A stretch of DNA of 50,937 nucleotides from Chromera velia (Eukaryota), in contig JAHBMJ010000300.1 of the NCBI GenBank assembly GCA_018398765.1, positions 1 to 50,937 on the forward strand, written 5' to 3'. This document shows positions 19,529 to 49,477 of the stretch, piece after piece (within the stretch, counting starts at the first letter, position 1; every line of letters begins with the position of its first letter). The notes beneath the pieces are model-generated. The model ran no database searches. It saw only the letters and a list, made by a program, of their open reading frames with translations, and was not told the DNA's origin. The translations under genes were made by a program, and so were the position numbers.

Positions 19529-20902
19529 ACTGCATTCAAGCCTAGGTTCAATTAAGCGGTCAGCATCTCCGTCCAGCTGCAGCGCGGCGTCCTTCTTGAA
19601 AACGCACTTATTTGATGTTGAAGTGGTTGGTGCTAGTGTTGGTATGATAGCACTGAGGCGCTGCTTAGCGCTTAAAGAGAGTTTACCTTTATTAAAACAA
19701 CTGTAAGTCCGGAAAACTGAATCAACTCTAAGTTTTGTTTTGTTTTTTGGTTCGGTACATATTTTTTCAGCATTTTTTGGTGGTGGCTCACGGTGACGCC
19801 GCTCACCGGCTTTAACCGCCTCAATTCAATTTCATTCAATTTAATTTACATTAGTAGTTACGTTACATCATCATCATCACCATCACAAGTAAAAATTTAT
19901 AAGGCTATAGGCCCTACTACACCGTATAGACTCCTAATATAGTATAGTATAGTATGTGCACAAAGTTAAAGTGTCCTTTCCTCCAGGGGGGGAATCATCA
20001 TGAATCATCCTGTGTCACCGGATCGATCAATTTTTGGAGTAGTCCCTTCTGAGCAGCCATCTTTCTGAGCAGCCTATAAATCATAGCACTGCATGCAAAG
20101 CGCGGACATATTGTTATTTATTAGTGGCCTGGGAAACCAAGCGGGCCACAGGGTGTGGTCTAAGCCTCAGCGATGAGGTACACCCCCCTGCCATTTGCGG
20201 AGGTGACCTCTATAATACAAAACGGCGACAGTACTCTAGGGCACCACTAAATTACTTATCACTTATCACCGTGACTACTTATCACTTTCATAATTATACT
20301 TAGTAGGCCCACAATTGAATTGATAACTGCTACTTCTACTCGTTTCTACTTGAGCTCAGTGAACTGTAACTTAAGGCTCAAACCTGATGACAAGCTAATA
20401 TGAAAAACTAACTGTTTCTAACTGTTATTGAGTCAAAATTAAGTCTCGATTCGTTAATGATAGGTTCGGGTAGGTTTAAGAACATTTACTGCTTACACAA
20501 ATCTTACTAGATCTTGCTGAAGAAATAGTGAGTATTTGAATTTTCAGAATAAAAAGATCTGACCTCCCTAAACCTAGATACTACTTGAAAGTTGAAGCCA
20601 CACTTTTGGATAAGCTTAAAAGTCCGTGCCGCAAGCACAGATCTTTGAAGGTCTCTTGAAAGCTAAAACCATATATCTGGACGGTGTCTTGACCGTTTAT
20701 GCCACATGCATGGACGGTCTCTTCAAAAAGAGTGCCGTACATATAAATGATCTTGATTATATTTTTTTAAGTGGTCTTTAGGTTCAGGGAGGTAAAGATC
20801 TTACTAAAAGTAACTATAAGAGTTACAAAGAGTACTACGGCTAAGTAAGTGCGGCTAAGTACAGTCGCGACGTCTTTAAACGTCTTTTAGAGGCTACATG
20901 GG

Positions 20903-23604
20903 TGTAGCATAGTGGCTAGCTATACGTTAGCAGACGAGGGCTCATCGAGACAGAGACAGTTAGTCAGATGGAAGGTCTGTCATACTAGGTATTTGTTGTT
21001 ATTCACTCGTTCATTCTGTTTCTGTCAGTCTGACTCTCATGCGACAGAAATACGACTGTTGATTCATATGGCTAAATCGTATGCAATGACGCGCGTGCTT
21101 ACTTCGATCGCGGCCCCGGAACGACGTGTACACACATGGACCGGTTCCATCACAATCGACACGCAAAGGCAGGACGCTCGCTGACGCTCGCACCACGACG
21201 GGCATACACGTCACACATGCCCCTCCCCAGAATGATTGTCCTCGATCATTTCCTTTCCTTTATACAAGCATCGTTCATCCTCGATCATGCTTTATTCATT
21301 CCTGCCTATACTTGAATGAACTCATATAATGAAATGAGAAGCGAACGGATACATATCGATCCTCGTAAGACTGATATCGCGGAATCAAGAAATCAATTGC
21401 ATCTGCATGAGGATAAAAAATTTTGTTTCACATCCACACATACGCTTCGATCGATTGTCTAGTTCATGAATACATGACATGAAAGCTGTGGTCGCAACTG
21501 GACCTGCATGAGCTTGCTCGCTTTGTGCATGCGCGTATGACTTCTGGTGGCAACCATGCCAGTCTCTGTAGGGTCAGACTCGCCAACCCTGTAGCCTCCC
21601 TCTCTCCTCTTTCTGGTGGCAATGCATCTGTGCATGCTCGTCGCACTGTCGACATGAACGACTGATGCTGCTCAATCAATCGTCCACACTTTGAGTACCA
21701 CTGCACAAACATACTACAAGCTGGTCTTTCTACGTTTCTTTATAACTGCTGGTCAGAAGAATTGTCAGCCTTCTCCTTTCTTCTGTCAGACGCAATCTGA
21801 CACACTCTTGCTTCCTCCCCTTCCCTTTGCTTCACTCAGTGATCGACCTAGGGTGGGGTCTGCCTTCACTTCTCGCAGCTTATGCAGGAGGGCACCACAG
21901 GTTGTCTCCTCTGTCTCCTCTTTCTTACTCTCTGTCTCTTCCTCCTTCTCTGCCTGTCTGGCAGCGAATGCGCTTTCGATTTCTGCGATCTGCTGCTCTG
22001 TCAATTCCTCCTCTCTCTCCACTCTTCTGGGGCCTGGCATACGGCTTTTGACTCCTGTCTGGATCGGTCTTTCTGTTTGACGGCGGTTGGGGGAATTGGC
22101 GAACTCATCTTCTTCTTCGCCGTCTCTGTCCTGTCCCTCACTGCACTTACACCCTTCGATGTGATACATGCCTGAGGGGCGGTACACCCACTTGTTGTCA
22201 GACCTCTCTCCTGTCATACGGACCATCTTTGGCTGCCCCTCTGGCCTCCAGATGTCGCTGGTCTCGTCGGAGTTATGACCAAATGACAGGTGTTTTGGCC
22301 CTCTGCCATCTGCCCTCTCTCTCGGCTTCTGAATAATGATAATGTCACAGTCAGGACAGTCTTTTGTACCATGACCTGCGTGCAATGTCCTGTAGAGGAA
22401 ACACCTGTGGAACTCCCTGAGGATCTCTTTCTCTTTATTAGTCAGGGGTGACAGCTTTTGGATATTGTGTTCTCTGCTTCTGTTCGTCTGCTCCAGTGTA
22501 CCGATGTCCATGGGTGCTAGACCAGTGGGATCATATGACATATGACCTCCACCACCGGTCACAGGGGGTGCTTCTGTTAAAGAAAGTGTTCTGAGGTGGG
22601 TTGCTGCTACAGCAAATGAAACAGATAGGTGGGAAACGATCGCGAGTGCTTCAAATGCTACTTCTACTGCTGCTTCGGGGTTTGCGGGTTTCTTTCTGTT
22701 CACCTCCTTTTAGACATTTTCGGGAAGACCCTTCTCGTACTGATATACTTTGTTGCTCATGCTCATGTCAGGGATAAAGAGCATGTTGGAGATGAAGTTG
22801 CTCGTGTACGTCTTGAGATCTGTGTCCGACACTCCCATACACTTCATCCTGTCCAGTTCATCTCGGTGATCATAACGAGTCCGTCTGTCCTAAAAATATG
22901 TCAGCAGGACAGTCTGGAGCTCCAACCACGTCGCAGGCGTGTGCCCATTCTTTTCTGCAAGCTTTACAGCCTTGACTGCATCACCTTTGAGGTGGCTATC
23001 AGCTACACTGAGCAGCTGCGCATCGGTCATACCATGGAAGTCATGGTACTTCTCGCATACCCGGACCCAATCTTCGAATTCCTCAACTATAATTCCAGTA
23101 TAATCTTAGATTGGTTTGATCGCCTTCGCAAAAGCACTGGAAGAAGTGGAATGTAAGTCGCCGAGGATCGCTCTCAGCTCAGTAATCTCTGCAGCCTGAG
23201 CTTGGTACAAGGTTTTTAACTCTTCGAATTCTCTGGTGAAACCTTCCATCCTGACAGAGCAAATTTGGTCGCAACGAGGCTCCTGCTATCACGTATAGCG
23301 TAGTGGCTAGCTATACGTTAGCAGACGAGGGCTCATCGAGACAGAGACATAGTCAGACGGAAGGTCTGTCATGCTAGGCATTTGTTGTTATTCGCTCGTT
23401 CATTCTGTTTCTGTCAGTCTGACTCTCATGCGACAGAAATACGACTGTTGATTCATGTGGCTAAATCGCATGCAATGACACGCGCGCTTACTTTGATCGC
23501 GGCCCCGGAACGACGTGCACACACACGGGCCGGTTCCATCACAATTGATACGTGAAGGTGGGGTGCTCGCTGACGCTCGCACCACGATGGGCATACACGT
23601 TATA
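20903..23604 (-). mobile_element. Non-autonomous gag-only LTR retrotransposon (Ty3/Gypsy-like gag), about 2.7 kb
   Basis: Direct LTRs 20903-21215 (TG...CA) and 23294-23604 (termini mutated to TA...TA). 5-bp TSD ATGGG (20898-20902) / ATAGG (23605-23609). PPT-like GGGGAGGG next to the 3' LTR and degenerate PBS-like TGATAGCAGGAGC next to the 5' LTR. No pol present. Confidence 0.93.
21786..23249 (-). pseudogene. gag pseudogene, 487 codons with 3 in-frame stops
   Basis: One frame: MEGFTREFEELK...EFEDWVRVCEKY...HLKGDAVKAV...ATWLELQTVLLTYF*DRR...YEKGLPENV*KEV... This resembles a retrotransposon gag capsid, followed by a degenerate knuckle RCFLYRTLHAGHGTKDCP. Stops at 23108 (TAA), 22892 (TAG) and 22712 (TAA). 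Confidence 0.85.
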
Positions 23605-23744
23605 ATAGGTCTTCCCTTAGCTACTCGAAAGCTTCCTTAAAGTACCATAAAGTTCTTTTCCACTGGCTTAAGTTTCATTGTTTCCTGCCGTTTAATGTAG
23701 TTTCATGAAAATCAGAATTCTATGTAGAATTATATATGATATAG

Positions 23745-23775
23745 GATTTAACCCTCAATCATCATCATCATCATC
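23745..23775 (+). mobile_element. 31-bp tail-only insertion of the (ATC)n-tailed LINE family
   Basis: GATTTAACCCTCAATC(ATC)n matches the reverse complement of the LINE 3' end at 46516-46545. Flanked by ATATAG duplicates at 23739-23744 and 23776-23781. Confidence 0.75.
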
Positions 23776-23999
23776 ATATAGAATTCTAACTTTAGTTTCT
23801 AAGTATTTCTGAGAAGGGTACTATTGTTTGTAGCTATCAAGCCGAGCTAAAAAACACGTACCGAGCTATTAAAGGCTGAGCTGATTTAGGTCGAAGATAC
23901 ATGTATATTGAGCTCACCGCCAGGCCTAGGCGCCGGTATAGGTTTGTACTCTAGAAGCATACACCATAGGGTCAGAAACCTAGGTACCAACCAAAGCCA

Positions 24000-24880
24000 C
24001 TTGACACGGAGGCCGGGTCGTCCAGATGGAACCTCGATCGATTGCTAATTGACTAACGCCAGGCCTAGAGAGGTAAACACACTTAAGCAAGGGAAGCGAA
24101 GACCCGAAAGAACTGAGGCCGGACATGACACTGAAAGGTGATGCTCTTCTGTTACTGAAAGAAACCCAGAGAAGAAAAATCCCGTCCAGAGACATGACGG
24201 GTCGCGTATGCATACTTCAGAAGGAAACTCATGAAAAGCATGACATGAAAGAAACCACAAGAAAAAACATGGATGCAACATAGGCAGAGCATAAGCAAAA
24301 GCGGTGCCAGAAAGATCCTGAAGTCAGAGCCAAAGCACACCACCCCGCGGCGCATCACGCACCATACACATACTTGCTTTGACAAAAAACAATTAAAATA
24401 ATTAGCATACACAAACAATACTCCCACAGGCAACTTGGATCCACTTTATGGAGTGCATGCAAGCACGCAGACAACAAAACTAACACAGCCCAAAAACGAG
24501 AGACATATAACCATCACAGTCTGATTAACTCCCTTCACGCAGCCGACTCAGGATCCTCCTGCATGAAGCGGTCTCTCTCGTGAGACAGCTGCATGGAAAA
24601 CTCCCGACCGAGAAGAGAGACCGGCTGGAACAGCCCCCTCTGACCCTTGCCATGGAATGCAGAGGTCAGAACATTGATCACCACATATCTCTGCAGCGTG
24701 CAACCGAGGATTTTCCAGTAACGATCAGTCAACCGAGCCTGTACAGCCATCAGCTCACCCTCTGTCGAAAACCCCGCCCTCGAGCTAGCCACACTGACTA
24801 GCTTTTTGACGAAAGAGACAGTCTCCCTGTCCGGACGTCCAAAGGTCTCGAAGACCAATGGGACAAACCGAAGATACGCC
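24000..24880 (-). mobile_element. 5'-truncated CRE-like (RLE) non-LTR retrotransposon: end of the endonuclease ORF (24880-24535) plus putative 3' UTR
   Basis: RFVPLVFETFGRP...VQARLTDRYWKILGCTLQRYV...GQRGLFQP aligns with the C-terminus of ORF 45248-45946 (RFVPLVFETYGRP...VQARLMNYYSKLLSCTLQRFV...GTRGHFQP). The 3' boundary is approximate. Confidence 0.8.
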
Positions 24881-25211
24881 TGCGCGCGCGGTCAGACTGA
24901 GCTATAGCACGCATGACTGCATGGCGCGGGGGGGCCCGAGCTAGCTACCTTTAAATTTCAAGGTTGGAATCGTTCTCTCAGCATGTTCTCAGCCGTTCGA
25001 TCATTGTGGTGCTGTCTACAAATGTCTGTGAATGTCCGGCCCTGGAGGCATGCACATTACAGCAATACCCTTCAGACAGCACACAACCTACTTGATTCCG
25101 TCAGAGCGGGCGCCGGAAATAATTCAATTAAGGCCGGTCTGCTTCGTGATTCGACTTGGTTGCCTGTTGCTCACCGGTGTCGATCCGTGTGAGGGAGGAG
25201 CTAGCGACACA

Positions 25212-28834: not shown

Positions 28835-29409
28835 CCCTGCAGGTAGCCAGGATTTTGCGGGATTTTAGCCCAGGATTTTAGCGGATTTTACGGGATTTTG
28901 CCCAGGATTCTGCCGGACTCTTACTATTAAAAATATAACCCCTACACCTAGGATTTTAAAATCTAAAATCGTGGAAGAAAGCTAAAATCCTAGCCTCTTC
29001 CTAGGATTTTATGGGATTATACGGGATTTTACGGGATTTTAAAGAAATGAATAAAATTAAATTCAAAGATGAATGACACACTTCAAGGCTGCACAGAAGG
29101 GATAACCGGCATCGATTGTGATCAACTTTTATTTCATTGTTTTTGTTTATGTTAAAATTCCGTAAAATCCCGTATAATCCCATAAAATCCTGGTATTCAT
29201 TTCTAAAATCCTAGGATCCACGATTTTAGTCTTTATAATCCGGGTATTAATCCCTAGAACCAGGATTTTAGATTCTAAAATCCTGGAGAAATAGTCCAGC
29301 AGAATCCTGGGCAAAATCCACCTAAATCCGCTAAAATCCTGGCCAAAATCCCGTAAAATCCGCTAAAATCCTGGGCTAAAATCCCGCAAAATCCTAGCTA
29401 CCTGCAGGG
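28835..29409. mobile_element. Foldback/MITE-like non-autonomous DNA element with long inverted arms built of GGATTTT subrepeats
   Basis: Left end CCCTGCAGGTAGCCAGGATTTTGCGGGATTTTAGCCCAGGATTTTAGCGG matches the reverse complement of the right end ...CCGCTAAAATCCTGGGCTAAAATCCCGCAAAATCCTAGCTACCTGCAGGG. Inner arms at ~29003-29040 and ~29160-29192 are also inverted. No clear TSD. Confidence 0.85.
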
Positions 29410-29734: not shown

Positions 29735-30116
29735 AAACATGAAAATCGTAGAGGAAATGTATGGGAATCTGATGGGAAATCCTAGATTCGGAGAAATGAA
29801 TAAAAATCAAAGGGAAATCCTAGGGAGAACTGTGAAAAATCTATATAGGCTAAGATTTCTCATAGATTTCCCCCTGATTTGAAGCAATGATTTCCCCCTC
29901 CTACTCCCCCCCTTGGCCCAGGCTTGGGCCCAGGTTGATTTCCCTATGAATCAGGCTGTGATTTCCCTCGGATCTCCATTAATTTCCCATCAGTTTTCCA
30001 TTCATTTCCTACTTTAGATTTCCCATCGTTTTCTTTAAGATTTTCTTTGATTTTCATTGATTTTCCTAGGATTTCCTATCAGATTTCTATAAATTTCCCT
30101 GTGATTTCTATGTTTC
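29735..30116. mobile_element. Second, more degenerate foldback/MITE-like element with GGAAATC / GATTTCC subrepeats
   Basis: Left AAACATGAAAATCGTAGAGGAAATGTATGGGAATCTGATGGGAAATCCTAG versus the reverse complement of the right end AAACATAGAAATCACAGGGAAATTTATAGAAATCTGATAGGAAATCCTAG. Subrepeat orientation flips inside the element. Confidence 0.6.
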
Positions 30117-30987: not shown

Positions 30988-31431
30988 TCAATCGTGAGGA
31001 AGAACAAGGTTACAATATCCGTAGTAGTAGTAGTTGTCAGGCTTCTTTGGGCAATCGAGCTTCGGCTTGCACGTCTCCCGCTTCTCCCCGTTGCAGGTCT
31101 CGTGGCAAGGGGTGAACTTCGGTTCGAGGTAGCAGCCTTCTGTATTCGTGAAATACTGTGCGTTGCTGCACTCACATTTGCGCAGGATCGAGTGGTAGTG
31201 CCAGGCACACGCGCTTTCCCCACCCCAGCAGCCGCCCGGGTAGGGTCCGTTATATGCGTCCCTCATGGGAAACGTCCCCATCTGGAGCATCAGGGCGTTC
31301 TCGTTGCACTGGTCGACAGTGCAGCTTGTGGGGAGAATCGGTTTCTCCTTAGATTGATTCTCCTTCAGCTGCAGTCCACTTGCAAAGGAGAGGATACCGG
31401 CAATGAGGGAGAGACGGGAAATGAAATTCAT
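30988..31431 (-). CDS. Intronless 147-aa secreted cysteine-rich protein (12 Cys)
   Basis: ATG at 31431, signal-peptide-like MNFISRLSLIAGILSFASG, then 12 cysteines in about 110 residues, ending YYYYGYCNLVLPHD*. Confidence 0.8.
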   Translation of the reverse strand: MNFISRLSLIAGILSFASGLQLKENQSKEKPILPTSCTVDQCNENALMLQMGTFPMRDAYNGPYPGGCWGGESACAWHYHSILRKCECSNAQYFTNTEGCYLEPKFTPCHETCNGEKRETCKPKLDCPKKPDNYYYYGYCNLVLPHD

Positions 31432-32442
31432 CGTTGCAGATTTTCTGGTGCAATAAGGGCCACTCTCTTCTTCTGCTTCCCCTTCGCGTTTCTTCTGTGA
31501 CTTCCCAAGATTGGAACAGACTTTCTCCTGAAAGGTCTGTATGAGGGGGTCTGGAGTTTGGAGATTCCTTTCAAGATGACCACTTTCTGCGTTTTCATTG
31601 AACGTCGAAACAAACTTGTCTATACTTGCATGAATTTTGATCCGGCCACCAAAAATACGTACATGCATGCATGCATCGATCATTGCATTTTTTTTTTTTT
31701 GCATGCATTTAATTTTTTTTTTTTTTTAATTATGTATCGATCGGTCGATCGATCGATGCATGCAAAAAAAAATATCTGTATCGTTATAACGGGATACACC
31801 CAACTAGTTGGGTGAGTGCCTCGGGGGGCCATTTAGGGGGTCGGCCATAATTTGATTGTTGCAAACCATCAGGGGCTTGGGCATGTCTTATATTAATTGC
31901 CTGCATGGGCAAGTGGCCGGCAGGGGCCACGGCAACGCGCGCAAAATGTGCTTTTCGGGACCGCATGCGCGCGGATATACACGCAACTCCGTGCGAGTTA
32001 CTTGAGGGGCACGCATCATGACGTACGAGCGCGGATCAAGCGATCGCGGCTCCGTGCGAGTTGCTTGAGGGGCATATTTTGGAATCAGGACAGACACCGA
32101 ACCCCCCCCCCCCCAAAATGAAAAAAATTCGTTATGCGAGTGCGTGCGATCTCAGGGCCTCTCGGCTGATCTCAGCAGAGCTGAGCTGCCCCCCGAGGCG
32201 ATTAAATGAAGAAAATATATATATAGATTGATTGCATGCATGGGATTGTCGATCATTGAATTCGCTCTCGTGCACTGCCGATCGATCGATGCATTGAATG
32301 AAGACTCATCATACGTAGGGAAAGGACAATTCACACATGCAAGAACCAATCAGCTCCAAGAAAGATCAAGCCTCGATGGTGCACGCCCCTACCGGTGTGA
32401 ACGCCCCGAAGTACAGCAACAGTACCTAGTCCCAAATCCAAA

Positions 32443-33711
32443 ATGATGTTCCAACAGCCCGTCACAACATTCGCATACCAGGGCAATCCTCAACCTGCTG
32501 TGGTGCCATATGGTTCCCTTCCCTTCGTAGCACAGAGTGCTTACCTGCAACCTTCATACCATTTTGGTCCTGTGCCCAGAAGAGTGGAGACTCCCGAAGA
32601 GAAGAAAACTCGAGAAGAGCTTGAGGGACAGCTGGATGCCGAACTCTTCCACAAGGAGAAGGAAGACGGACTCGCGGCGGTCCGCAATGCAGCAAACAGG
32701 GAGAGAAGAAACAGATGGAGGCAGAAGTTGCTTGTTCTCACCCAGGCCGACAGAGACCACCCAGACCCATGGGACAACCCCTACAGAGACCCTGGCCACA
32801 TGCCCACTATCGAGGAAATCGACAGAGCACAGAGGCACGACGATCGACGGGAAATAAACCGCCAAAGAACACACAACAACAGAATCAGGCAGCTCAATTA
32901 TGAGCTCCAGCGTGCCAGCCTCCCTGCCTATCAAAGAGACCAGATCGTCCCCCCACCCCTCGAACGAATGGTAAAAGTCCAGACTCCCCGTCCTAAACCG
33001 CCAAAACGAAAGCAGCAACCCCCTAAGCGAGCTCCTCCGCAAGGCTCCCTAGACATTGAGGCACAGAACCGGCAGTGGAAGGGCTTTCAGTCCCAGCTTG
33101 CCCGACAGGGGCACAAGACACTGAAAGAGGAGATGGAGAGGCAACACAAAGAGCAAAGAAAAGCTCTGAAGAAAAAGCTGGACGCTTTCACAGCCCCTCC
33201 GCAGTCCGATCGTCCGGGATACTTCCACGGCCCCAGTTTCGACCCCGACCTTCTTCGTCCGGTCCCCAATATGGAGATCGACGAGGCAGCCCTCCGAGAC
33301 CCCGTTCGTGCCCGAGCTCAGACGCTCATTTTGCAAAATCGAGCAAGAGACATTGAGGACAGGATCCGAAAGCTCCAAGAGACACAGGAGCATTTCAAGG
33401 AACACAGGGCGAGGGAGCTCCAGGAGATGGAGGAGCAGATGAGGAGGAGGAGGGAGTGCTTCCTCTACGATGCTGCAGATGCTGACGACCATCTCGTCAA
33501 CTTTTCCCACCAGCAGAGAAGGGTACCCCACCCGAACGCACCCGTCACCCAAGCCTCCCCCGTCTCCCCAGAGGAGCAAGAAATCAGAAGGCAAACCAGA
33601 GCACCTCCTGACATTGCGGGCTCAGGAGCACCCCTTCCGAGTCTCTGGAGAAACATGAAGGAGTGGCTCGAGTACATGACCTCCTACCCCAGCACCAGAG
33701 TGCCAATCTAG
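32443..33711 (+). CDS. Intronless 422-aa Q/P/R/E-rich hypothetical protein with coiled-coil segments
   Basis: Long uninterrupted non-repetitive ORF with AAAATG start context and a coding-like appearance; no recognisable domain. Confidence 0.78.
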   Translation: MMFQQPVTTFAYQGNPQPAVVPYGSLPFVAQSAYLQPSYHFGPVPRRVETPEEKKTREELEGQLDAELFHKEKEDGLAAVRNAANRERRNRWRQKLLVLTQADRDHPDPWDNPYRDPGHMPTIEEIDRAQRHDDRREINRQRTHNNRIRQLNYELQRASLPAYQRDQIVPPPLERMVKVQTPRPKPPKRKQQPPKRAPPQGSLDIEAQNRQWKGFQSQLARQGHKTLKEEMERQHKEQRKALKKKLDAFTAPPQSDRPGYFHGPSFDPDLLRPVPNMEIDEAALRDPVRARAQTLILQNRARDIEDRIRKLQETQEHFKEHRARELQEMEEQMRRRRECFLYDAADADDHLVNFSHQQRRVPHPNAPVTQASPVSPEEQEIRRQTRAPPDIAGSGAPLPSLWRNMKEWLEYMTSYPSTRVPI

Positions 33712-35019: not shown

Positions 35020-35295
35020 TATGATTTCATGTTCCTATTCCCGATTCTTCCATTCCGCAGGCGGATCTATTGGCAGCCTAAGACTTTTGACTGCGGCCGG
35101 TTCATCCAGTAGCACTGAATCTAGCACTGAATTCAAAGTTGTAGGTGTCTTCCAGTCCTACATTAGTCACCCACATATATACAAACAATGTGAAATGAAA
35201 ACTCACATAGTGAAAAATAACCAAAAAGAACTACAAGCCTTTCAACCAAGAATGCAGCTCGAATGTAGGAAGAAAGAAGAAAAGAAAAGAAAAGA

Positions 35296-35328
<33 letters not shown>

Positions 35329-35340
35329 TACACATACACA

Positions 35341-35413
<73 letters not shown>

Positions 35414-35612
35414 AGGGAGGGAAAGAGGGAGAAAGGGAGAAAGACAGAGAGAGAGAGAGAGAAAGAGGGAGGGAGGGAGGGAGAGAGAGAGAGAGAGAAA
35501 GAGAGAGTGAAGAGAAATGAAGAGAAGAAGAGGAGCACGGGGAGAAGAGGATTACTGGGACTTAGTATCGGGAAGAAAAAGAGGAAGAAGAAAAATTCAG
35601 ACCCTTCCTTAT
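35020..35612 (-). repeat. Diverged duplicate of the last intron, last exon and 3' UTR of the GalT-like gene (source ~48990-49575)
   Basis: Colinear similarity, for example GAACTACAAGCCTTTCAACCAAGA(A/T)TGCAGCTCGA and GAGAAGAAGAGGAGCAC, with the same (CA)n(GA)n block. The acceptor CAG is CAT in this copy. Confidence 0.85.
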
Positions 35613-35849: not shown

Positions 35850-38800
35850 ATGGGCGAGACAGGAGTGCACTTTCTAACAAAAATGAGAAACAAAAACGAC
35901 GGACTTGTCTCTATTGTGTGCGAGGTACCACTCCAATACGCGCACAAACAAGCGGAGATCAAGGCGTCCAAAGGCGAAAGGATCAACTTTCTGCGCGTCA
36001 GGCCCATTGCTGCAGCCCCGGATCTCGGGCCCTCCTCTCGGGTCTGCTGCGAAAGCATACTAGAGACCGGCAGCCACCAGGAACCCGTTTTTATTCTCAG
36101 GTAGACTCTGAGAATGGAAGCTTAAGAGAATTGTCTTGAAGGTATCATTAGGTCCTCCTGCAGAGACGCCCTTGAACCGTATCGCTTTGCCGGGAGGGCC
36201 CTGTTCTCCCAGGTTGAGAGCAGAGGCAGGGGTTGGCGAGGCGCTACTGACACTGGACACTCCCCATTTCTTTTTCTCCTTCTCTCCTTTGCAGTGTCGT
36301 GTCTTCACGGGTGGATGCCACTTGGCGTGCACAGGCAAGCAGAGTGCTCAGCAAGGCGATGAAGAATCCGCATATGACCCAGGGAGGTCCGGGGATACCA
36401 CAGAAATCGGCAGAACCGTTTTGTGGAGTGACGAGGGAGAAAAGGTCTCTGGGTGTCATCTGTATCCATCCATCCATCCATCTATCCATTCATCTACTAA
36501 TTTACTCATTCAGGTGGACCCAACATTTTGAGATATGGAATAAATGTTCGGATTGTATCTCAAAAAATGTGTACACGCTCGCACAGCTGGAAGAAGATGT
36601 CAAAAATTCGACTTCCCAGAGGGAACAAGGTAAGAGGCAGAGCAACACACAGGAGTTGAACAGCATGGAAGCTGGACATGCAGAGAAAAGCACGTTCAGT
36701 CAGTCCAACATGCATCTACACCTATGTTATTTCAAAAAACGGTATTGCGATGACACGATGCCCCCCTCCCGTGCTAATCTGATTAAATACACGCTTATAC
36801 TAATCTACAGAGAATCTGATAGCTTGCTTGACTTATATACATTCAGAGCCAGAATTACCGCCACTGCAGCGCCAACGAACGAAGCGTCCCACAAGGCTAA
36901 ACGGGTGATCAGATCGTTCAGCCGGATCTGCAGTTATCTGCAGTTTCGCAAACCAAAAACCAAACTCTGTGATTGGCCGCTGAAAAACAAAGCAAATGGG
37001 CAAAAAGAATCTCGGAGGGCGTGTTCGAAAATCAGCACTACAAGGAAGAGGTAAACATCAGATTTCAGTGAAGACACAGCCTTGTCTCGATCAGTACACG
37101 ACAAATCATACGTGGCAAAAGAAGAAACAAAGTACTTTGAACAATTGACTGCAGGGATCTAGATGAAAGGTTAATATCCATTAATTCAATCAAGGGCGTA
37201 CGTGCATACTTTTTTGAGACAGCTGGATCTTAGCCGAAGGAACAAAAACTTCCTGAGTGGACTTGAAAAGGAATTCAGGAAGGCAATCAATATTTTGAGA
37301 CCCCGATCCATCCTTCAGTTTTGATTCTTGCTTTGTAAGATCCCATTCTTTCATCTCATTAATTTGGGTCACAGACTGACTGTCTGACTAAGGACCTTAC
37401 TGACTTCTTAGAGAGACGCCCTCCAGAGGTGCCCAGAGGTAGAGCGTTGGCCCTGTGAAGCAGCCCCCCTGCGACTCCAGAGGATCCCCCCCACTGTGGC
37501 TTGTTGTTTCTGTACGTAAGGGTGCATGCACAAAAGCACATGCAGGACAGCAAAAAACGGTAAAAAAGGAAAAAGGGAGTACTGACCATGCTTTTCTAAG
37601 CCACCTCAGTCCATAAAGTTGAATCAATGAGTTTTTGCCAACAACTCGATCTGAAGAAGGTCTGAAGCAGAGAAGGCTCAACTAAACAAGGAAGAAGAAG
37701 ACTACTTGCTTAGCTCCCCACTGCATATGTGGTAAAAAAAGAAACAAAGTACTTTGAACAATTGACTGCAGGGAAGGAATTCGGCCATGAGTCAATGCAG
37801 CTGGGTCCCATGATTTCTAACTTCTGACGGCTGGCGTCCAGCGGGTCGCTTCCAGTGAAATACTTGCCCACCAGCCAGCCAGCCGCCCTTCTCTTGATTC
37901 GATTGCCTACCTATCCACACCCTGACTGACCCACTGACTAATTGCCTGACCGACTGACTAACAGTCTTAAACCCCTCCGTTCGTTCTTTTTAAAATTCCA
38001 TCCCATCCTCCTTTCCACTCTCCCCCCCTTCCTTTTCTTCCACACACATCCTTTCCGCTCTCCTCGCCTCCCTTATGTCCACACACCTCGGAGTCCTTTC
38101 CACTCTCCTCTCTTCCCTTCCTTCCATACACATCCTTTCCGTTTTCCTCTCTTTCCCTCCTTCCACAAACCTCTTTTTCGCTCTTTCCTCCTCCTTCCTT
38201 CAGCATACCTCCTTTCCGCTCTTCTATCTTCCCTTCCCTTCCTTCCACACACCTCTTTTCCACTCTTCTCTCTTCCTTTCCTTCCATACACCTCCTTTCC
38301 GCTCTCCTCTCTTCCTTTCCTTCCACAAACCTCCTTTGCGCTCTCCTCTCTCCCTTTCTTCCACACACCTATTTTCCGCTCTCCTCTCCTCCCTTACAAA
38401 AGGGTTGGCACCGCCACTGGGCGGGCGCGCCCACCTTTCCAAACATCCGCTGCCCTCACTCGCAGGAGTCTGGCGGGGCCACGGCATGCCGTTGAGGTAC
38501 CGGGGCTACAATCTGTATCTGGAAGCGGATTAATTGAATTAAACAGCATGCATATATTAAAAGATACAGATTGAACAAAGATACGAAACAACCATAAGAG
38601 TCGAAAGAAGATAACAGACCCAGACTGGTAGTTTTCTTAAGCGTCTTATATGAATAAGAGACCAAGGCTATCACCCTAGACTAGCCAACCTCTTCGCTTC
38701 CCTTCCTTCCATATACCTCCTTTGCGCTCTCCTCTCCTCCCTTCCTTCTATGCATATCCTAAGCTTTCCGCTCTCCTTTCCTCTCCCCTCTTCCTTCCAC

Positions 38801-41700
38801 AAACCTCCTTTTCGCTCTCCTCTCCTCTCCCCTCTTCCTTCCACACCTTCTTTCTGCTCTCCTCTCCTCCCCTTCAACACTCTCCCTTTCTGCTGTCCTT
38901 TACTCCCTTCCTCTCCGTTTTGCTTATCGCTCTCCTCTTCTTCCTTCCTTCCACATACCTCCTTTCCGCTCTCCTCTCCCCCTTTCCTTCCATATACCTC
39001 CTTTCCGCTCTCCTCTCCCCCATTCCTTCCATGCACATCCTTTCCACTCTCCTCTCCCCGCTTCCTTCCACACACTTCCTTTCCGCTCTCCTCTCCCCCT
39101 TTCCTTTCACACACCTCCTTTCCGCTCTCCTCTCCCCCATTCCTTCCATGCACATCCTTTCCACCCTCCTCTCCCCGCTTCCTTCCATACACCTCCTTTC
39201 TGCTCTCCTCTCTTCTCCTCCCTTCCTTCCACATACCTCTTTTCCGCTCTCCTCTTTCTCCTTCCTTCCACACGTATACCTCCTTTCTGCTCTTCTCTTC
39301 CCCCTTCTTCCACACACCTCTTTCCTGCTCTCCTTTCCTCCCTTCCTTCTATGCACATCCTTTCCGCTTCTCTCCCCACTTCCTTCCACACACCTCTTTT
39401 CCGCTCTCCTCTCCTCTCCCCCTTTCCTTCCACACCTCCTTTCCACTCTTCCCTCTTCTCTTCCTTCCACACACCTGCTTTCCGCTCTTCTCTCCCCCTT
39501 TCCTTCCGCACACATGCTTTCTGCTCTCCTTTGCTCCCCTTCAATACTCTCTCTTTCTGCTATCCTTTACTTCCTTCCTCTTCGTCCTCCTTATCGCTCT
39601 CGTTTCTTTCATTTCTTCTAGTGTACACCCCCTTAAAGTTTCTGTCTAGGTTTCTGTTCAACTTTCCTCCCTTCTTCAGTCTCCGCATCACCTCCTTTCC
39701 GCTCTCCTCTCCTCTCTTCCTTCCACACACTTCCTTTCCACTCTCCTCTCCTCTCCCCTCAGAGTCTTCCTTCCACACCTTCTTTCCGCTCTTCTCTCCC
39801 CCCTTCTTCCACACACCTCTTTCCCACTCTCCTTTTCTCCCTTCCTTCCACACCGCCTTTCCACTCTCCTCTCTTCCCTTCCTTCCACACCGCCTTTCCG
39901 CTCCCCTCCCCTCTGTTCCCGTCCTTCTCTCATCTCCCTCACTTCCTGACTGACTGATTTGCGAGCACACGAGGCTCAATTACCCCCCCCCCGTCCGGTA
40001 TTGCATGATTCAATTTGCTCACGCAGCATACTTTTCGAAGGCTGAGGGGGTCGACCGCCTGATGTATCTGTCCCTCCCTATCTTCAGAAAAATACTGGTC
40101 GATAAATTCTAAAAGCTGATCTGGAAACGGTGGTAACCGTTGAAGAATTTTTAAAGAGAGAGACAGTAAGTATGGCCTTCTTCTTTCGATCTATCCGTAC
40201 GATCCACTTAAGCTAGAGGAGAAGCTTCATGGATCGGTAGGAAGGCGGGCAGGAATTAAGGCAGCTGACTGCATGCCGAGTCTCACTCACTTTAGAAAGA
40301 GAAGGAAAAGCCCCCCGTACTTAAGGCTAGCACTTAAGGTCCCTGTTGGTGAAGCTGCAGGACATACAGGAGAGACAGCGACACATGTACGTACATCGAG
40401 ATGAAAGGTTAATGTCTATTAATTCGATCAAGGGCGTACGTGCATACTTTTTTGAGACAGCTGGATCTTAGCCGAAGGAACAAAAACTTCCTGAGTGGAC
40501 CCGAAAAGGAATTCAGGAAAGCAATCAATATTTTCAAACCTCGATCCATCCTTCAGTTTTGATTCTTATTTTGTAGGATGTCTGCTCCTTAATTGACCTA
40601 ATGCATCCAATTAGACTTACGTCCCCCTTTTTCGTTTTTTATTTTCTATATTTTTCTATCTTGTATGCAATGCCATATCAAGTCCTTCCTTCTGTGCATA
40701 CATGCATGCAGAGTCTGCATGACGACTTTCAGGCTGGCTGTCGACCTTTCTACATAGCCTGACAATCGCTCACTCATCCCATTGATTGACTGATTGACTG
40801 ACTCACACGGATAGACATCTAGGGGAACAGACTAAAGGGACTGCAGGGATGTTGTGGAAAGAGGCGGTGTCATACAACAAAGAAAGGAAGGAAGTCAGTG
40901 TTAGTTTCCTTAATATGTCCCCCCCCCCNCTTTCCCCCCCTCTCTCTCCGAGTCTCTCTCCTACCTATCCCTGGACCAACCCGACCCACTGGTTCTGACT
41001 TGGTTCGCTGGATTTGCAGTTTCCTAGCATTCACTTCCCGATCATTTTGAAGAAATACATTCATTCATTGCCTGAACGTGGCTGCTTCTAACTCCACTCT
41101 CAGACCGACCGACCCTTTTTTTCGGCAATCTGTTTTTCTTTTTCTCTCTCTTCCAGGAGGAAGCAGAGGATCTGATGTATCGTCAGAGAGGATCGGCTCT
41201 TGATGTAATTGAGGAGACTGAGTACGACTGTTGGGGGCCATCTGGTATTCCTCGAAGAGTTTCGAGATCATCCCAAGACCCAAAGAGCAGTTGACGTGGT
41301 AAGAGAGTTTCACACACTCCTCCTCCAGCTGTTCTGCATCCATGCGCATCAAGCATCGCGGGCCCTTCATCCTCTTCCCCTCCCTCCTCTTCCCCAGCCG
41401 CCTTACTGTCTCTGTCTCTTTCTGCATCTCTGTCTCCACTTGTGCTTTCTTCAACTACTTCATTGATGGCGAGGCATGTCTCAATTACCTGAATGGGCGA
41501 GAACCCATGCAGTTGAATCGATTGACAACATGAAGAAACGGAGGGACTTCATCAGCTCAATCACCTGGGCCTAGGTTTGGCTCTCCTGCCCGATTCGGTC
41601 ATGGAAACTTTATACAACGATGGCGTACGGGAATTCCCGAGCCGATCATGAAGGTCTAGCTTGGTCGATTTGAGATACCAGGGCCCCAGCAGACTTACCT
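35850..41700 (+). pseudogene. Possible decayed intron-containing gene or TE-derived coding region of unknown family
   Basis: Exon-like blocks with AG/GT borders (~36294-36386, ~36514-36629, from ~41157) and a coding-like frame at ~40110-40580 broken by TAG/TAA. Internal duplications 37162-37340/40400-40579 and 37108-37157/37725-37774. No recognisable domain. Confidence 0.3.
37975..39950. repeat. Pyrimidine-rich minisatellite, ~35-bp unit (CCTTTCCGCTCTCCTCTCCCCCTTCCTTCCACACACCT-like), interrupted at ~38400-38690
   Basis: Tandem degenerate units visible directly; explains the GRKG/EESGK ORFs. Confidence 0.92.
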
Positions 41701-42567: not shown

Positions 42568-43219
42568 TCAGGCCCCAGGAGGCTTTCGTGACCCCCCTTG
42601 CAAAGGCGTCATCTTGAGAGATTGAGAGCTCACCCCTCGTTCCCATCCTAACAGGACTTTCATCCAAAAAATCCCGAATCTTCTAGCTTCTCCCTCTCAT
42701 TCACCAGGAAGAACTTTCAGATCAGTCAGATGCTGTTGCTCGGTCTGGTCAGACGCAAGTGTAATCTTTCTGGAGGCGGAAATGTAGAGGGAATACTCCG
42801 TACGAAGCATCACAATGCAGTGGTGGTGGTAGGCCGGCCTGCGTGATCTGCATTACGTATGTATGGCGTCGGGTCAGAGGGAACCATGCAGAGATTGATG
42901 AATCAGAGACGAGTAAAAAGAAGAAATGAAATGGAAAAGCCACCGCGATGGATACATGTCATAAAAGACTAAGACCGAGACCAACAAGCGAGAAAGATTG
43001 AAGAAAAACAGCAGAAGACCACTGAATCGATCTATCTGTCTGTCTGTTTGTTTGTTTGATGGGAAGGGAATGAACAGAAGAAGACCATGCTGAGGGGTCT
43101 GGGCGATCGCACGGGAAGTCTTAGCACATGACTGAATCGGACAGAGGACGCGAGATGAGGTATCATTACCACCATCTGCATGCATCCTGTCATGAGCATG
43201 CTATACCTATATATCGATA

Positions 43220-46200
43220 TAGGCGGAGGAAACCGTCACAGCAGGCTGCCAAAGATAGCATGCGCCGCCACGTGGATGCCCTCATCAAAGACGGGGCCCT
43301 CTCTAAAACAGTCTCCCGCCTAGGCTCCTTAGGGATCGCTACCCCAAACATGAAGACATTCCGCAAGCGGAAGGATCTCCACCCCCTGCGTAGGAGTCCG
43401 ACCCGATATGAGACCAAAGCCCTCGCATCAGACCCGCCCCACCTCGAGCTTACGCTCGATTCCCTCCTACAAGCAGCCCGCTCTGCCACCCAAGGCTCTG
43501 CCCAGAGAATTTCAGGGTGGCGTTATGAACACATTCGTTTCTTTCTCCCAGGCGACGGATCAGGAGGGGGGGGTACAGCAAGGCAGTGTGCTCTCTTTAT
43601 CATCGCCCAGCAACTGGCAGCGGGCAACGCCCCTCCGTCCCTTCTTCGCTTGCTCGCAAGTGGGAGGTTTTTTACCCTCAACAAGGACCTGAAAGGTAAT
43701 AAGGTAAGACCGATCACGATGATCATCGGGGACGTGCTCCGAAGATGGGTCACGAAGGCAATCCTGATCAAGTATGGGAAGAAGTTTGAGGAACACCTTG
43801 GGGCATTGCAGTATGTGGTAAGAACGAGTGCAGAGACAGAGAAACGTTTTAGAGCAGTCCAAACTTGTTTACAGTTTTGTCCTAACTCCATCCTCCTCCA
43901 GATAGATGTAAACAACACATTCAACACTTGCGATAGACAGAAAGCGATGGACGAGCTGCTGCATGAAGATTTTCCTGAGCTGTTTCGTTTCTTTTCCGTT
44001 CTTTTCTCTCTGGTATGGTATGCCAGTCTCAATCTTCTTTTGTGATTAGAAAGGCAGACTGCGTACTTTCATGAGTCAAGAAGGAGTACAACAGGGAGAT
44101 GTTGCAGGGCCGCTTTTTTTTTGTCTTGGCCTAAAACCTGCTTTAGAAAAGTTGCAAAAGAGGCTGTACGAGAAGTATGGGAAGGTGGGATGTTTCATAG
44201 GTCCATACATGGATGATCTCTCTCTCATTTTCCCTTTTAGCTCTGCTGATTGTCTGACCTCTACCTGGTCAGATTGTGTAGAAATTTTGGGAGAATATGG
44301 CCTGATGCTCAATCTGAATAAGGATAAGAGCGCAGCTTTCTCTCCCAGTTGGAGAGGGAAATCAGAAAGAGAGATTCTACAACAGCGCCCCCCAGGACTA
44401 GAGGTATCGACACAAGGCTACAAGTTGATGGGGGCAGGGGGGGGTAAAGACTCGTTCGTGAACAGCCTGTTCGAAAAGAAGCTAGCAGAAGCAACAAAGC
44501 TGGGGAAGCGAGTGGAGGGGTATGGAGTTCTCCAGGGATGCAGCCTGCTGTTTCATTACTGCATCTTCTCTAAACTTGTCTACTTGGCGTGGGTGATGGA
44601 AGACAGACTCCACACAAACGTATGGGAAAGAGCAGACAAGGAGTTGGGGGAGTCTTTCGCCCGTAGTATGCGCCTCAGCCTACAAGAATGGACCTAATAG
44701 CAGAGCTAGGCGCATCTCCCATTATGTCAGGGGGAACTGGGGATCCCTTAAAGTTTCTTCCATTTTATCATGCCAGCGGCCTTCACAGGCTGCGCGGCAT
44801 ATACCTTTGCAGCAGTGAGGAGCCGATTGATAGAGCAGGGTTTCGAAACACCAACAAAGGCAGACTTTGCAGGTCTGTTTTAGGTAAAAAGGGCAGAGCA
44901 AGCTTATACTGATTGTAGGGGGGGGACCGAACGGGAACTTGGAAAGGTTCCTCAAATTCTGGAACTTCAGTGGGGGGAGAGAATGGAAAATTGGTTATTG
45001 TGGGAGAGACGGGAGGTACAGTACCTCATGATGGAAGCGCTGCACTTAGTTGAGAGGGAAAAGCTCTTAGCCGCTTTGCCAGCCAAAGGAAAGGCCCGTC
45101 TGTGATCCTGTGCAGGCACAGGCGCCTCCGCTTGGCTAACAGCCATACCGTCTTCAGGTTGGACTCGTATTTCTCCAACCCTTTTCACCACAGCCATCCA
45201 TCTCCGTCTCAGCTTGTCCATTCCAGAGATCAGAAGAAACCCTATCTGTGCGTGTGAAGCCCCGCTGGATGTGGAGGGACAACATGCATAGACCTGCGGG
45301 ACAGGGGGGGGGGTCTGGTGGTGGTGAACAAATGAAGGACGCCTTTTGCTCCCTCCTTCAAGGCCTCTATCACTGCTACGTAACAAAAGAGCCTATGTTC
45401 GGGCAGCTTGGGCTGTCTACCGCAACCCGTCTGGTCGAAAAGAGACAGAAACGCCCCGATTTTCTTGCAAGGCTCCCGTCCGGAGACACAGTGCTTGCCG
45501 ATGTCGCTGTTACCTATCCATTTTCCATCGATGCTAACCATCTGCGCCGATTTGCAAAAACAGCAGGGTCAGCAGCGAGGGGAATGAAGAAAGTGAAGAA
45601 CGATAGGTATGGGGAGATTTGCTATGAAATCGGTTTCCGTTTTGTGCCGCTTGTTTTTGAAACTTATGGAAGACCAGGGGAGGGAGTAGTAAGGGTTTTG
45701 AAGGAAGTGGCAAAGTTGGGAGCAGGGAGGATGAGGGGTAGGGAGGGAGACGAAGCAGTCCAAGCAAGGTTGATGAACTACTACTCCAAGCTCTTGTCTT
45801 GCACTCTGCAGCGTTTTGTCACAGCAAACCTTCTGTCCTCCATCTACAGCAAGAGGGGCACAAGGGGCCACTTCCAGCCCAAGGGTCTGCTCGGGGGGGA
45901 AGTGGCCGCGTTCTCCAGGTCTTTTGACCAGGAGGGCGCAAACTGAAGGAATTTCTTTGGCAATGCAAGAAAACAGAAGAGGGATACATGGGTAAAAGCG
46001 TAAGCAAATGAATCGGAAAAGTTTAGGGAACTGAGTTTAAAGAAAGCGTTTTGATGGGGTGTTTAAAGTAGGAGTTCTTTAAAGGGATGGAAGACGTGCG
46101 GGATGCACCTCTGCACAATGAAAGTCTTTCTGATTAAAAGGGTAGCTTTTTTTCAATGAAAGAACTGAAGTGTTTCGAAGTTTCTGCCCTGCATCCCCTC

Positions 46201-48619: not shown

Positions 48620-49185
48620 ATATAATTAGACTGTCTAAAACCATATACGGACTGTCACAGTGTTTAAACCTATAAACGGACTGTGTACAGTGTACATAGA
48701 CTAACTCCAACAGATAATGACCCACGGATTTTATCATTGAACTGTAACTTTCTCTGCCATCGACTGTTAGTCGCTCTGCCGGTGGTGACAAGCTCTGCCG
48801 GCAATTGCCGTCCTGCCAGCAATCGCTGTTCTCTGCCGCCAAAAAAAAAACAGAATATCAATTATGTGTTTTCAATTTAATATGTCCTTGAATAATAATC
48901 TGAGGTTAAATTTGAAAAATATTAGAGAGTTCGGTTTTTAAAAGATTGTAAACACATTTCACAAACGGCTTGCAACCATTTGTTTTTTTAATGATTTGGC
49001 GTTCTCAACTTCTCATTCCTGATTTCCCTATTGTAGACCCGTTGGCAAACTTTTGCGGCCGGTTATCTTGTACATGTGGCACTGAATTTAAAGTTCTAGA
49101 TGTCTTCCGGTCCTGCATAAATCCCCCACATACAAGCAAACAGTGTGAAAGGAAAACTCATACAAAGAAAAGTAACCAAATAGAA

Positions 49186-49267
49186 CTACAAGCCTTTCAA
49201 CCAAGATTGCAGCTCGACTGTGGGAAGAAAGAAAAAAAAAAAGAAAAGAAATGAAAAGAAAGTAAAA

Positions 49268-49303
<36 letters not shown>

Positions 49304-49325
49304 TACACACACACATACATACACA

Positions 49326-49358
<33 letters not shown>

Positions 49359-49399
49359 GCACGCACGCACGCATGCACGTACGCACATACGCATACACG

Positions 49400-49431
<32 letters not shown>

Positions 49432-49441
49432 TACACACACA

Positions 49442-49477
<36 letters not shown>

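What the first reader, a model, noticed from the sequence alone, without database searches (positions are those of the whole stretch)
20898..23609. RIP-like hypermutation: the LTR pair differs only by C>T/G>A transitions at CpG and CpA
Seen: my manual alignment of the two LTRs gives about 25 substitutions, all transitions, plus one 2-bp indel. Nearly all are CG/TG/CA or CA/TA and TG/TA pairs. The terminal TG...CA of one LTR became TA...TA and the TSD changed ATGGG>ATAGG, and these sites cannot derive from CpG. All three gag stops are TAA/TAG, consistent with CAA/CAG. Known: zero transversions plus CpA>TpA in repeats is the signature of fungal repeat-induced point mutation (RID/DIM-2), while plain CpG decay does not hit CpA. 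Inference: this apparently non-fungal, alveolate-like genome has a repeat-directed C>T mutagenesis or dense non-CpG methylation defence.
Basis: partly seen in the sequence, partly recalled or inferred. Interest (0 to 1): 0.9.

Follow-up and report, generated by a model that had tools for sequence, protein, structure and literature searches.

The report
RIP-like C-to-T decay in Chromera retrotransposons
In the coral-associated alga Chromera velia, copies of a retrotransposon have lost cytosines to thymines mainly at CG and CA sites, a pattern resembling a fungal genome defence and likely caused by methylation of transposon DNA, in a species for which no such system turned up in my literature searches.

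Summary
The LTRs (20903-21215, 23294-23604) of a gag-only Ty3-like element differ by 25 transitions, 0 transversions and one 2-nt indel: CpG 14/66, CpA 9/46, CpC 2/24, CpT 0/34 sites. The window is Chromera velia, an alveolate. Paralogous LTR contigs set the direction as C>T/G>A on both strands, with mean variant share 0.155 at CpG, 0.129 at CpA and about 0.02 at CpC/CpT. The CpA hits are not second hits at CpG.

Against a strict RIP reading: four gag paralogs and a LINE family (amino-acid level) show a 7-10-fold C>T excess without CpA preference. Other repeat pairs in the window lack the CG/CA confinement, changes are not strand-clustered, and no unique-DNA control was available.

Published tables give C. 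velia five DNMT-domain genes, four classed as DNMT2 and none as RID/DIM-2/DNMT1/3/5, but that table has gaps. Best reading (0.5): transposon-targeted CG plus non-CG methylation with gradual deamination. An active RIP-like mutator (0.2) and a genome-wide spectrum (0.22) remain open. Earlier scan notes report similar patterns in a fungus and opposite polarity in a diatom-like genome; none for this genome.

The parts
20898..20902 (.). left target-site duplication (ATGGG)
20903..21215 (-). 3' LTR, 313 nt, ends TG...CA intact; carries 14 of the 25 derived T/A alleles
21220..21228 (-). polypurine tract (GGGGAGGGG on the minus strand) 4 nt inside the 3' LTR
   Evidence: role inferred from the position
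21786..23249 (-). gag-like ORF, 487 codons, broken by stops at codons 48, 120 and 180; Ty3_capsid E=2e-6 and Retrotrans_gag E=1e-3 (both under the curated cut-off); no pol, so non-autonomous. The second Cys of the likely zinc knuckle reads Tyr through a CpA-context change at 22393
23279..23291 (-). primer-binding-site-like stretch 2 nt inside the 5' LTR; starts TGA where the canonical start (recalled) is TGG
   Evidence: function inferred, matching tRNA not tested (no tRNA gene in the window)
23294..23604 (-). 5' LTR, 311 nt, both terminal dinucleotides changed (TA...TA); carries 11 of the 25 derived alleles
23605..23609 (.). right target-site duplication (ATAGG), one G>A at TpG
19650..20897 (.). 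left flank, AT-rich and TpA-rich (GC 0.40, TpA o/e 1.02), with a short high-copy repeat near 20732-20793; possibly older decayed repeat DNA
   Evidence: origin inferred
23610..24000 (.). right flank (GC 0.38, TpA o/e 1.16), with a short high-copy repeat near 23738-23777
43125..45946 (+). decayed LINE used as a second transposon class: 14 C>T/G>A against 0 reverse changes in the stretch covered by 5 or more paralogs, in all four contexts

Best explanation
Copies of this Chromera velia LTR retrotransposon have gained C-to-T changes on both strands after insertion, mostly at CpG and CpA, likely because the host methylates cytosines in transposon DNA in CG and non-CG contexts and the methylated bases deaminate over time. 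Shown: the direction, the post-insertion timing, the two-strand symmetry, and the CG=CA>>CC/CT ranking in this family's DNA; a 7-10-fold C>T excess also in a LINE family. Inferred: that 5mC is present, that it is aimed at transposons, and that the loss is gradual. The enzyme is unidentified. The listed candidates are the four DNMT2-class genes and one further DNMT-domain gene, or a divergent DNMT that the surveys missed. The effect is that copies lose their terminal TG/CA, gain stops in gag, and drift to AT-rich, TpA-rich DNA.
For: LTR pair: 25 transitions, 0 transversions, 23 of 25 at CG or CA. The target-site copy and both LTR termini changed, so the changes are post-insertion. Paralogous contigs over 20700-23800: C>T 265 and G>A 282 places against A>G 91, T>C 98 and 120 transversions in X1; X2 gives 275, 270, 90, 98 and 113. 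Among the 40 best-supported rows of 1005, the 27 interior places where this copy has T/A and most others C/G are CA 17, CG 7, CC 2, CT 1, against 326, 156, 216 and 316 such sites left (CA against CC+CT p=3e-5). In 23450-23515, with 40 of 45 rows shown and all C>T rows among them, the mean variant share is CG 0.155 (21 of 22 sites), CA 0.129 (7 of 8), CC 0.022 (2 of 6), CT 0.024 (2 of 3), A/T>G/C 0.014 (2 of 27); CA against CC/CT p=0.004. C>T and G>A are interleaved along the copy (runs test p=0.24 overall), as gradual loss predicts. Host genes and introns in the window keep GC 0.48-0.56 and TpA o/e 0.30-0.45, against 0.55-0.66 in transposon interiors, 0.92 in the LTRs and 0.83-1.16 in AT-rich patches. 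C. velia has five DNA_methylase-domain genes (PMC5890265 supplement). Symbiodinium, also an alveolate, has CH methylation enriched on transposons (PMC5890265 section 8). In Zymoseptoria, 5mC in transposons ranks CG>CA>CC>>CT and drives CA>TA change in mitosis (PMC8016269 passages).
Against: No methylation was measured, and I found no methylome of this species. One survey lists no DNMT1, CMT, DIM2, DNMT3, DNMT4, DNMT5 or DNMT6 for C. velia, only 4 DNMT2 (PMC12344493 supplement), and DNMT2 is normally a tRNA enzyme (PMC9998398 passage). Missense changes in four gag paralogs: CG 8/81, CA 11/193, CT 14/226, CC 7/176, so CA is no higher than CC+CT (p=0.85). LINE family: CA 7/204 against CC+CT 17/645, p=0.63. 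Other repeat pairs in the window lack the confinement: 37157/40395 has 11 transitions and 2 transversions with CG 2/12, CA 3/20, CC 2/20, CT 4/22; 35092/49054 has 16 and 12. The LTRs still have CpG o/e 1.30, and CpG o/e is about 0.6-0.8 in genes and transposon interiors alike, so CG loss is not special to transposons by composition. The CA sites number only 8, and 7 lie where a second related family adds depth.
Confidence: 0.5

Rival explanations
1. An active RIP-like mutator: an enzyme recognises repeated DNA and converts C to T (methylation-coupled or direct deamination) in bursts, at a sexual stage or in mitosis, as RID does in Neurospora or Dim2 in Zymoseptoria. It would have arisen separately, perhaps from the expanded DNMT2-class genes.
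For: About one in five CpG and CpA sites differ between the LTRs while 0 of 311 columns show a transversion. CpA is hit as often as CpG, whereas methylomes such as that of Symbiodinium have about 70% mCG against about 1% mCH, which passive decay would not turn into equal rates. The change reaches into the target-site copy outside the repeat. Nine C>T changes run uninterrupted in the 5' LTR (runs p=0.054). The flanks have RIP-type indices (TpA/ApT 1.23-1.29; (CA+TG)/(AC+GT) 0.94-1.00).
Against: No RID/DNMT4 or DIM2 is listed, and DNMT4/RID is called fungus-confined in PMC12344493, although PMC9998398 reports DNMT4-like enzymes in diatoms. The element itself has no RIP-type composition (interior TpA/ApT 0.56). 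No strand clustering over the whole copy (p=0.24). No CpA preference in paralog proteins or the LINE. Some LINE paralogs remain within 90% clusters with open frames.
Confidence: 0.2
2. A genome-wide mutation spectrum with a strong C>T bias and a preference for C followed by a purine. It is visible in transposons only because they are neutral and have copies to compare. Genes and introns would keep their GC through selection or GC-biased gene conversion.
For: Transition excess in the other repeat pairs of the window. A C>T excess in all four contexts in gag paralogs (40/676 against 7/781 reverse) and in the LINE (34/1061 against 3/966). CpG o/e is 0.6-0.8 nearly everywhere. No canonical DNA methyltransferase is listed.
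Against: Introns and genic stretches have GC near 0.5, CpA o/e 1.10-1.16 and TpA o/e 0.30-0.45, far from what a 7-10-fold C>T excess with CA>TA would give at equilibrium (inference). The CG/CA confinement is strong in this LTR family and absent in neighbouring repeats, which a single spectrum does not predict (small numbers).
Confidence: 0.22
3. Editing or error during retrotransposition (APOBEC-type deamination of cDNA, or reverse-transcriptase bias).
For: In the gag paralogs, 13 of 14 CpT-context changes are G>A on the sense strand (13/174 against 1/52), a hint of strand bias in that subset.
Against: C>T and G>A are equal on the + strand (265 against 282). The host-derived target-site copy is changed, and the two LTRs, made identical by reverse transcription (established knowledge), differ at 25 places.
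Confidence: 0.04

Closest known systems
Repeat-induced point mutation (RIP) of ascomycete fungi, RID/Masc1 (DNMT4)-dependent
   Same: C:G>T:A transitions in repeats on both strands, CpA hit, Gln codons turned to stops, change reaching just outside the repeat.
   Different: Non-fungal host; CpG hit as hard as CpA or harder; no RID/DNMT4 or DIM2 listed; no strand-coordinated runs over the copy; link to a sexual stage and to homology untested. PMC9246332 (passages) lists RIP for fungi only and says it may have evolved elsewhere.
Dim2-dependent mitotic CA>TA mutator of Zymoseptoria tritici (PMC8016269)
   Same: Transposon-associated C>T at CA; its 5mC ranks CG>CA>CC>>CT, like the ranking of changes in the LTR pair.
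   Different: There more than 98% of new C>T changes were at CA and CG was spared; here CG equals or exceeds CA. No DIM2 is listed for Chromera.
CH methylation of transposons in Symbiodinium, Klebsormidium and land plants, with decay of 5mC
   Same: Non-CG methylation marks transposons, also in another alveolate (PMC5890265); 5mC deaminates to T.
   Different: In Symbiodinium mCH is about 1% against about 70% mCG, and DNMT5, DNMT6 and retrotransposon-borne DNMTs are present. Chromera has only DNMT2-class genes listed, and its CA changes are as frequent as its CG changes in this family.
DNMT2-only organisms with reported DNA methylation (Toxoplasma TgDNMTa/b, PMC5436566)
   Same: Related lineage; only DNMT2-class genes listed (2 in Toxoplasma, 4 in Chromera); CG, CHG and CHH methylation reported in Toxoplasma.
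   Different: No transposon mutagenesis is reported in the passages I saw; DNA methylation by DNMT2 is disputed (recalled).
Non-autonomous Ty3/gypsy-like LTR retroelement
   Same: LTRs with TG...CA, 5-bp target-site duplication, primer-site-like and polypurine stretches, Ty3 capsid-like gag.
   Different: 2.7 kb with gag only and no pol; the Pfam scores are under the curated cut-offs.

Membership tests
RIP (fungal) | C:G>T:A transitions dominate between repeat copies, on both strands | tested here: met
RIP (fungal) | CpA is the preferred target, above CpG and CpY | tested here: inconclusive
   CA >> CC/CT in LTR-family DNA but CA = CG; no CA preference in paralog proteins or the LINE
RIP (fungal) | confined to repeated DNA, unique DNA spared | tested here: inconclusive
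   composition of introns and genes argues for sparing; no polymorphism data in unique DNA; two other repeat pairs lack the pattern
RIP (fungal) | RIP composition indices in the affected repeat (TpA/ApT high, (CA+TG)/(AC+GT) low) | tested here: not met
   element interior 0.56 and 1.42, LTRs 0.81 and 1.02; only the flanks reach 1.23-1.29 and 0.94-1.00
RIP (fungal) | strand-coordinated clusters from single rounds (feature recalled) | tested here: not met
   runs test p=0.24 over 53 changes; 5' LTR alone p=0.054
RIP (fungal) | RID/DNMT4 (and DIM-2) encoded | not testable with these tools
   no genome held; a published table lists 0 for both, but it has visible gaps
RIP (fungal) | acts premeiotically and depends on homology | not testable with these tools
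   needs crosses or a duplicated transgene
Transposon-directed CG+CH methylation with 5mC decay | 5mC present at CG and CA in transposons | not testable with these tools
   no methylome found
Transposon-directed CG+CH methylation with 5mC decay | C>T excess over the reverse change in transposon copies, CG among the highest contexts, strands mixed | tested here: met
Transposon-directed CG+CH methylation with 5mC decay | a DNA-acting C5 methyltransferase is encoded | tested here: inconclusive
   literature only: 5 PF00145 genes, 4 classed as DNMT2; sequences not obtained
Ty3/gypsy-like LTR retroelement | paired LTRs, TG...CA ends, 5-bp target-site duplication, polypurine tract | tested here: met
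Ty3/gypsy-like LTR retroelement | pol with RT-RNase H-integrase order | tested here: not met
   no pol between the LTRs; the class rests on the gag match alone

The most novel reading that the evidence does not exclude
Chromera velia has evolved, apart from fungi, a mutagenic defence against transposons, in which an expanded set of DNMT2-class enzymes acts on DNA and drives CpA and CpG to TpA and TpG in repeats.
Probability: 0.13. Interest if true: 0.92.

Novelty: new variant of a known kind. Interest (0 to 1): 0.58.

Why it matters
Mutagenic genome defence is described for fungi only (PMC9246332). Chromera is a close free-living relative of apicomplexan parasites and carries about 30 Mb of transposons (PMC4501334), yet surveys list for it no standard DNA methyltransferase. 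A CG+CA mutation scar in its retrotransposons makes two open questions testable with one methylome and one phylogeny: whether DNMT2-class enzymes can mark DNA, and whether RIP-like defence exists outside fungi. If the plain reading holds, it still gives indirect evidence of non-CG transposon methylation in a chromerid, and it warns that LTR dating there will overestimate ages.

Tried and rejected
Whole genome: none held, so no genome-wide alignment of copies and no direct search for DNMTs or deaminases. DNA of other copies: a gag search in metagenome contigs gave 237 pattern matches and none confirmed; an LTR motif gave 0 matches in metagenome, genome and viral contigs. No listed holder is on record as RNA; runs X3 and X4 are RNA only by guess, so nothing is concluded on expression. 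LINE at 46658-48654: the C. velia homologs were only 44-64% identical, too far to polarise. LINE at 43125-45946 beyond 43845: only one diverged paralog, so those rows were dropped from the count (kept rows). Misaligned, spliced parts of gag paralogs were dropped. 'Second hit at an ancestral CpG' is rejected: at the 9 CpA differences both LTRs share the A/T neighbour, and the neighbours of 6 of the 7 variable CA sites show no G/C variant at 2% or more (23477 is the exception; the neighbour of 23450 lies at the edge of the readable range). Reverse polarity (T>C) is rejected for the four LTR-pair differences inside the range, where C/G is the majority, and for the canonical TG/CA ends. Assembly artefact is rejected. 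Literature: no paper holds Chromera with repeat-induced point mutation; the listings show no Chromera methylome or non-fungal RIP report. Supplements were only partly searched: 12 of 16 for PMC4501334 and 12 of 23 for PMC9998398, both without hits; the rest may bear on the DNMT repertoire. Earlier scan notes: nothing for this genome or this LTR. The Rab18 phylogeny was not run: the two exons are Ras-family and the taxon was settled by other proteins.
Full report
The element. Positions 20898-23609 hold a complete 2.7-kb LTR retroelement on the minus strand. The LTRs lie at 20903-21215 and 23294-23604, between a 5-bp target-site duplication (ATGGG, ATAGG). A polypurine tract lies at 21220-21228 and a primer-site-like stretch at 23279-23291. 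The only long frame is a 487-codon gag-like ORF (21786-23249) with three stops. Read through, it matches Ty3_capsid at E=2e-6 and Retrotrans_gag at E=1e-3, both below Pfam's cut-offs. There is no pol, so the element is non-autonomous.

The host. The four homologs of the gag are all Chromera velia CCMP2878 proteins at 68-83% identity. A C. velia gene model, Cvel_16482, matches the LINE at 43350-43820 and 45158-45943 at 100%. No whole genome was held.

The observation. The LTRs differ by 25 substitutions in 311 columns, all transitions, plus one 2-nt indel. By site: CpG 14/66, CpA 9/46, CpC 2/24, CpT 0/34. CpA exceeds CpC+CpT (p=0.0097) and equals CpG. Both termini of the 5' LTR and one base of the target-site copy changed at TpG/CpA. 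LTRs are identical at insertion (established knowledge), and both LTRs share the A/T neighbour at the nine CpA differences. These are therefore post-insertion changes at true CpA sites. Two of the three gag stops stand where paralogs have Gln; the third is unresolved, with Tyr in the one aligned paralog. Contigs of two DNA runs match the outer ends of the element with no differences.

The family at DNA level. I laid four runs on 20700-23800 at 80% likeness; 1265 and 1221 contig pieces were laid from X1 and X2. X1 shows C>T at 265 places, G>A at 282, A>G at 91, T>C at 98 and transversions at 120; X2 is nearly the same. The symmetry excludes editing of one cDNA strand. Only 40 of 1005 rows were shown. 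In 27 interior rows this copy has T/A where most others have C/G, in the contexts CA 17, CG 7, CC 2, CT 1 (CA against CC+CT p=3e-5 after allowing for site numbers). A second laying on 126 LTR bases gave an almost complete table (40 of 45 rows, readable range 23450-23515). Mean variant share was 0.155 at CG (21 of 22 sites), 0.129 at CA (7 of 8), 0.022 at CC (2 of 6), 0.024 at CT (2 of 3) and 0.014 for A/T>G/C (2 of 27). These shares are depth-weighted contigs, include inherited variants, and in 23450-23476 include a second related family. In the cleaner part (23477-23515) only one CA site remains, so the CA test there has no power.

Results against a CpA-specific process. Missense differences in the four gag paralogs, mapped on the window's codons, give CG 8/81, CA 11/193, CT 14/226, CC 7/176 and reverse changes 7/781: a 7-fold C>T excess with no CA preference. 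These paralogs are annotated open frames, which may favour lightly hit copies, and the codons are inferred. The LINE at 43125-45946, in the stretch with five or more paralogs, shows 14 C>T/G>A against 0 reverse changes in this copy (CG 5/28, CC 5/45, CA 2/25, CT 2/34). Pooled with its paralogs it gives 34/1061 against 3/966, again without CA preference (p=0.63). Two other direct repeat pairs in the window show 11:2 and 16:12 transitions to transversions with CT hit as well. C>T and G>A changes are interleaved along the element (p=0.24), although the 5' LTR has a run of nine C>T (p=0.054).

Repeat-specific or genome-wide. I had no polymorphism data for unique DNA. Composition is the only control: introns and genes have GC 0.48-0.56, CpA o/e 1.10-1.16 and TpA o/e 0.30-0.45; transposon interiors have TpA o/e 0.55-0.66; the LTRs 0.92; the flanks and other AT-rich patches 0.83-1.16 at GC 0.32-0.40. 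A 7-10-fold C>T excess acting everywhere would be expected to pull introns towards low GC, so targeting is the simpler reading. This is inference, and biased gene conversion could mimic it. The AT-rich patches may also be AT-rich for other reasons; one contains MITE-like elements.

Machinery, from papers only. A supplement row of PMC5890265 counts five DNA_methylase genes in C. velia. The supplementary table of PMC12344493 lists four DNMT2 and no DNMT1, CMT, DIM2, DNMT3, DNMT4, DNMT5 or DNMT6. That table also gives zeros for Phaeodactylum, which has DNMT3, 5 and 6, and for Vitrella, which has a sequence grouped with algal and diatom DNMTs in the supplements of PMC10538959 (DNMT5 class inferred from the column position). 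Its zeros are therefore weak evidence. Symbiodinium has about 70% mCG and about 1% mCH, the latter enriched on transposons (PMC5890265 section 8). Zymoseptoria Dim2 methylates CG>CA>CC>>CT in transposons and causes CA>TA mutation in mitosis (PMC8016269 passages). Toxoplasma is reported to have CG, CHG and CHH methylation (PMC5436566 passages) and is listed with two DNMT2-class genes only. PMC9246332 (passages) knows RIP from fungi only. PMC4501334 (passages) reports about 30 Mb of transposons in Chromera; the passages shown say nothing on their mutation pattern. My searches listed no Chromera methylome and no RIP-like report for it; the library lacks most subscription journals.

Verdict. The signal is real and replicated across the LTR family. 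It works like RIP in outcome, but it should not be filed as RIP: two tested features are not met and the enzyme and timing are untested. I give 0.5 to transposon-targeted CG plus non-CG methylation with gradual deamination, 0.22 to a genome-wide spectrum, 0.2 to an active RIP-like mutator and 0.04 to editing during replication. The open puzzle is that CA is hit as often as CG in a species whose only classed cytosine methyltransferases are DNMT2-like. Earlier notes of this scan describe a similar pattern in the fungus Jimgerdemannia and the opposite polarity in a diatom-like genome; I did not test them, and they are no support here.

Noticed in passing
window 28835-29409 and 29735-30115: Two AT-rich MITE-like elements with long terminal inverted repeats built of short GGATTTT-type units; the first has near-perfect outer arms.
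   Followed up: partly
window 43125-45946 (+) and 24535-24891 (-): A decayed non-LTR retrotransposon with RT domain, and a short diverged 3' fragment of a related element upstream of the Rab gene (49% amino-acid identity). Parts of the first are annotated as host gene Cvel_16482.
   Followed up: partly
window 46658-48654 (-): A second decayed LINE with RT domain; C. velia homologs at 44-64% identity.
   Followed up: partly
protein P0004 (Cvel_16953): A gene model that joins a Sec61-beta domain to the N-terminal part of this family's gag; may be an annotation artefact from an insertion in or behind the gene.
   Followed up: no
protein P0034 (Cvel_21857): A gene model with a copia-type RT domain (RVT_2) joined to a LINE RT domain (RVT_1); probably nested elements merged in annotation.
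   Followed up: no
window 38000-39930: A pyrimidine-rich minisatellite of about 39-nt units in two blocks, flanked at a distance by a 185-nt direct repeat (37157-37341, 40395-40579, 93% identical).
   Followed up: partly
window 35092-35606 and 49054-49568: A dispersed repeat carrying (CA)n and (GA)n microsatellites in its middle, two copies 14 kb apart.
   Followed up: partly
window 20732-20793 and 23738-23777: Short stretches with very high summed contig depth on either side of the LTR element, with varied loose ends: ends of other abundant repeats.
   Followed up: no
   Followed up: partly
window 30988-31725 (-) and 32401-33711 (+): Two long open frames without Pfam match: a cysteine-rich one with a signal-peptide-like start (by eye) and a 436-codon charged one.
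   Followed up: no
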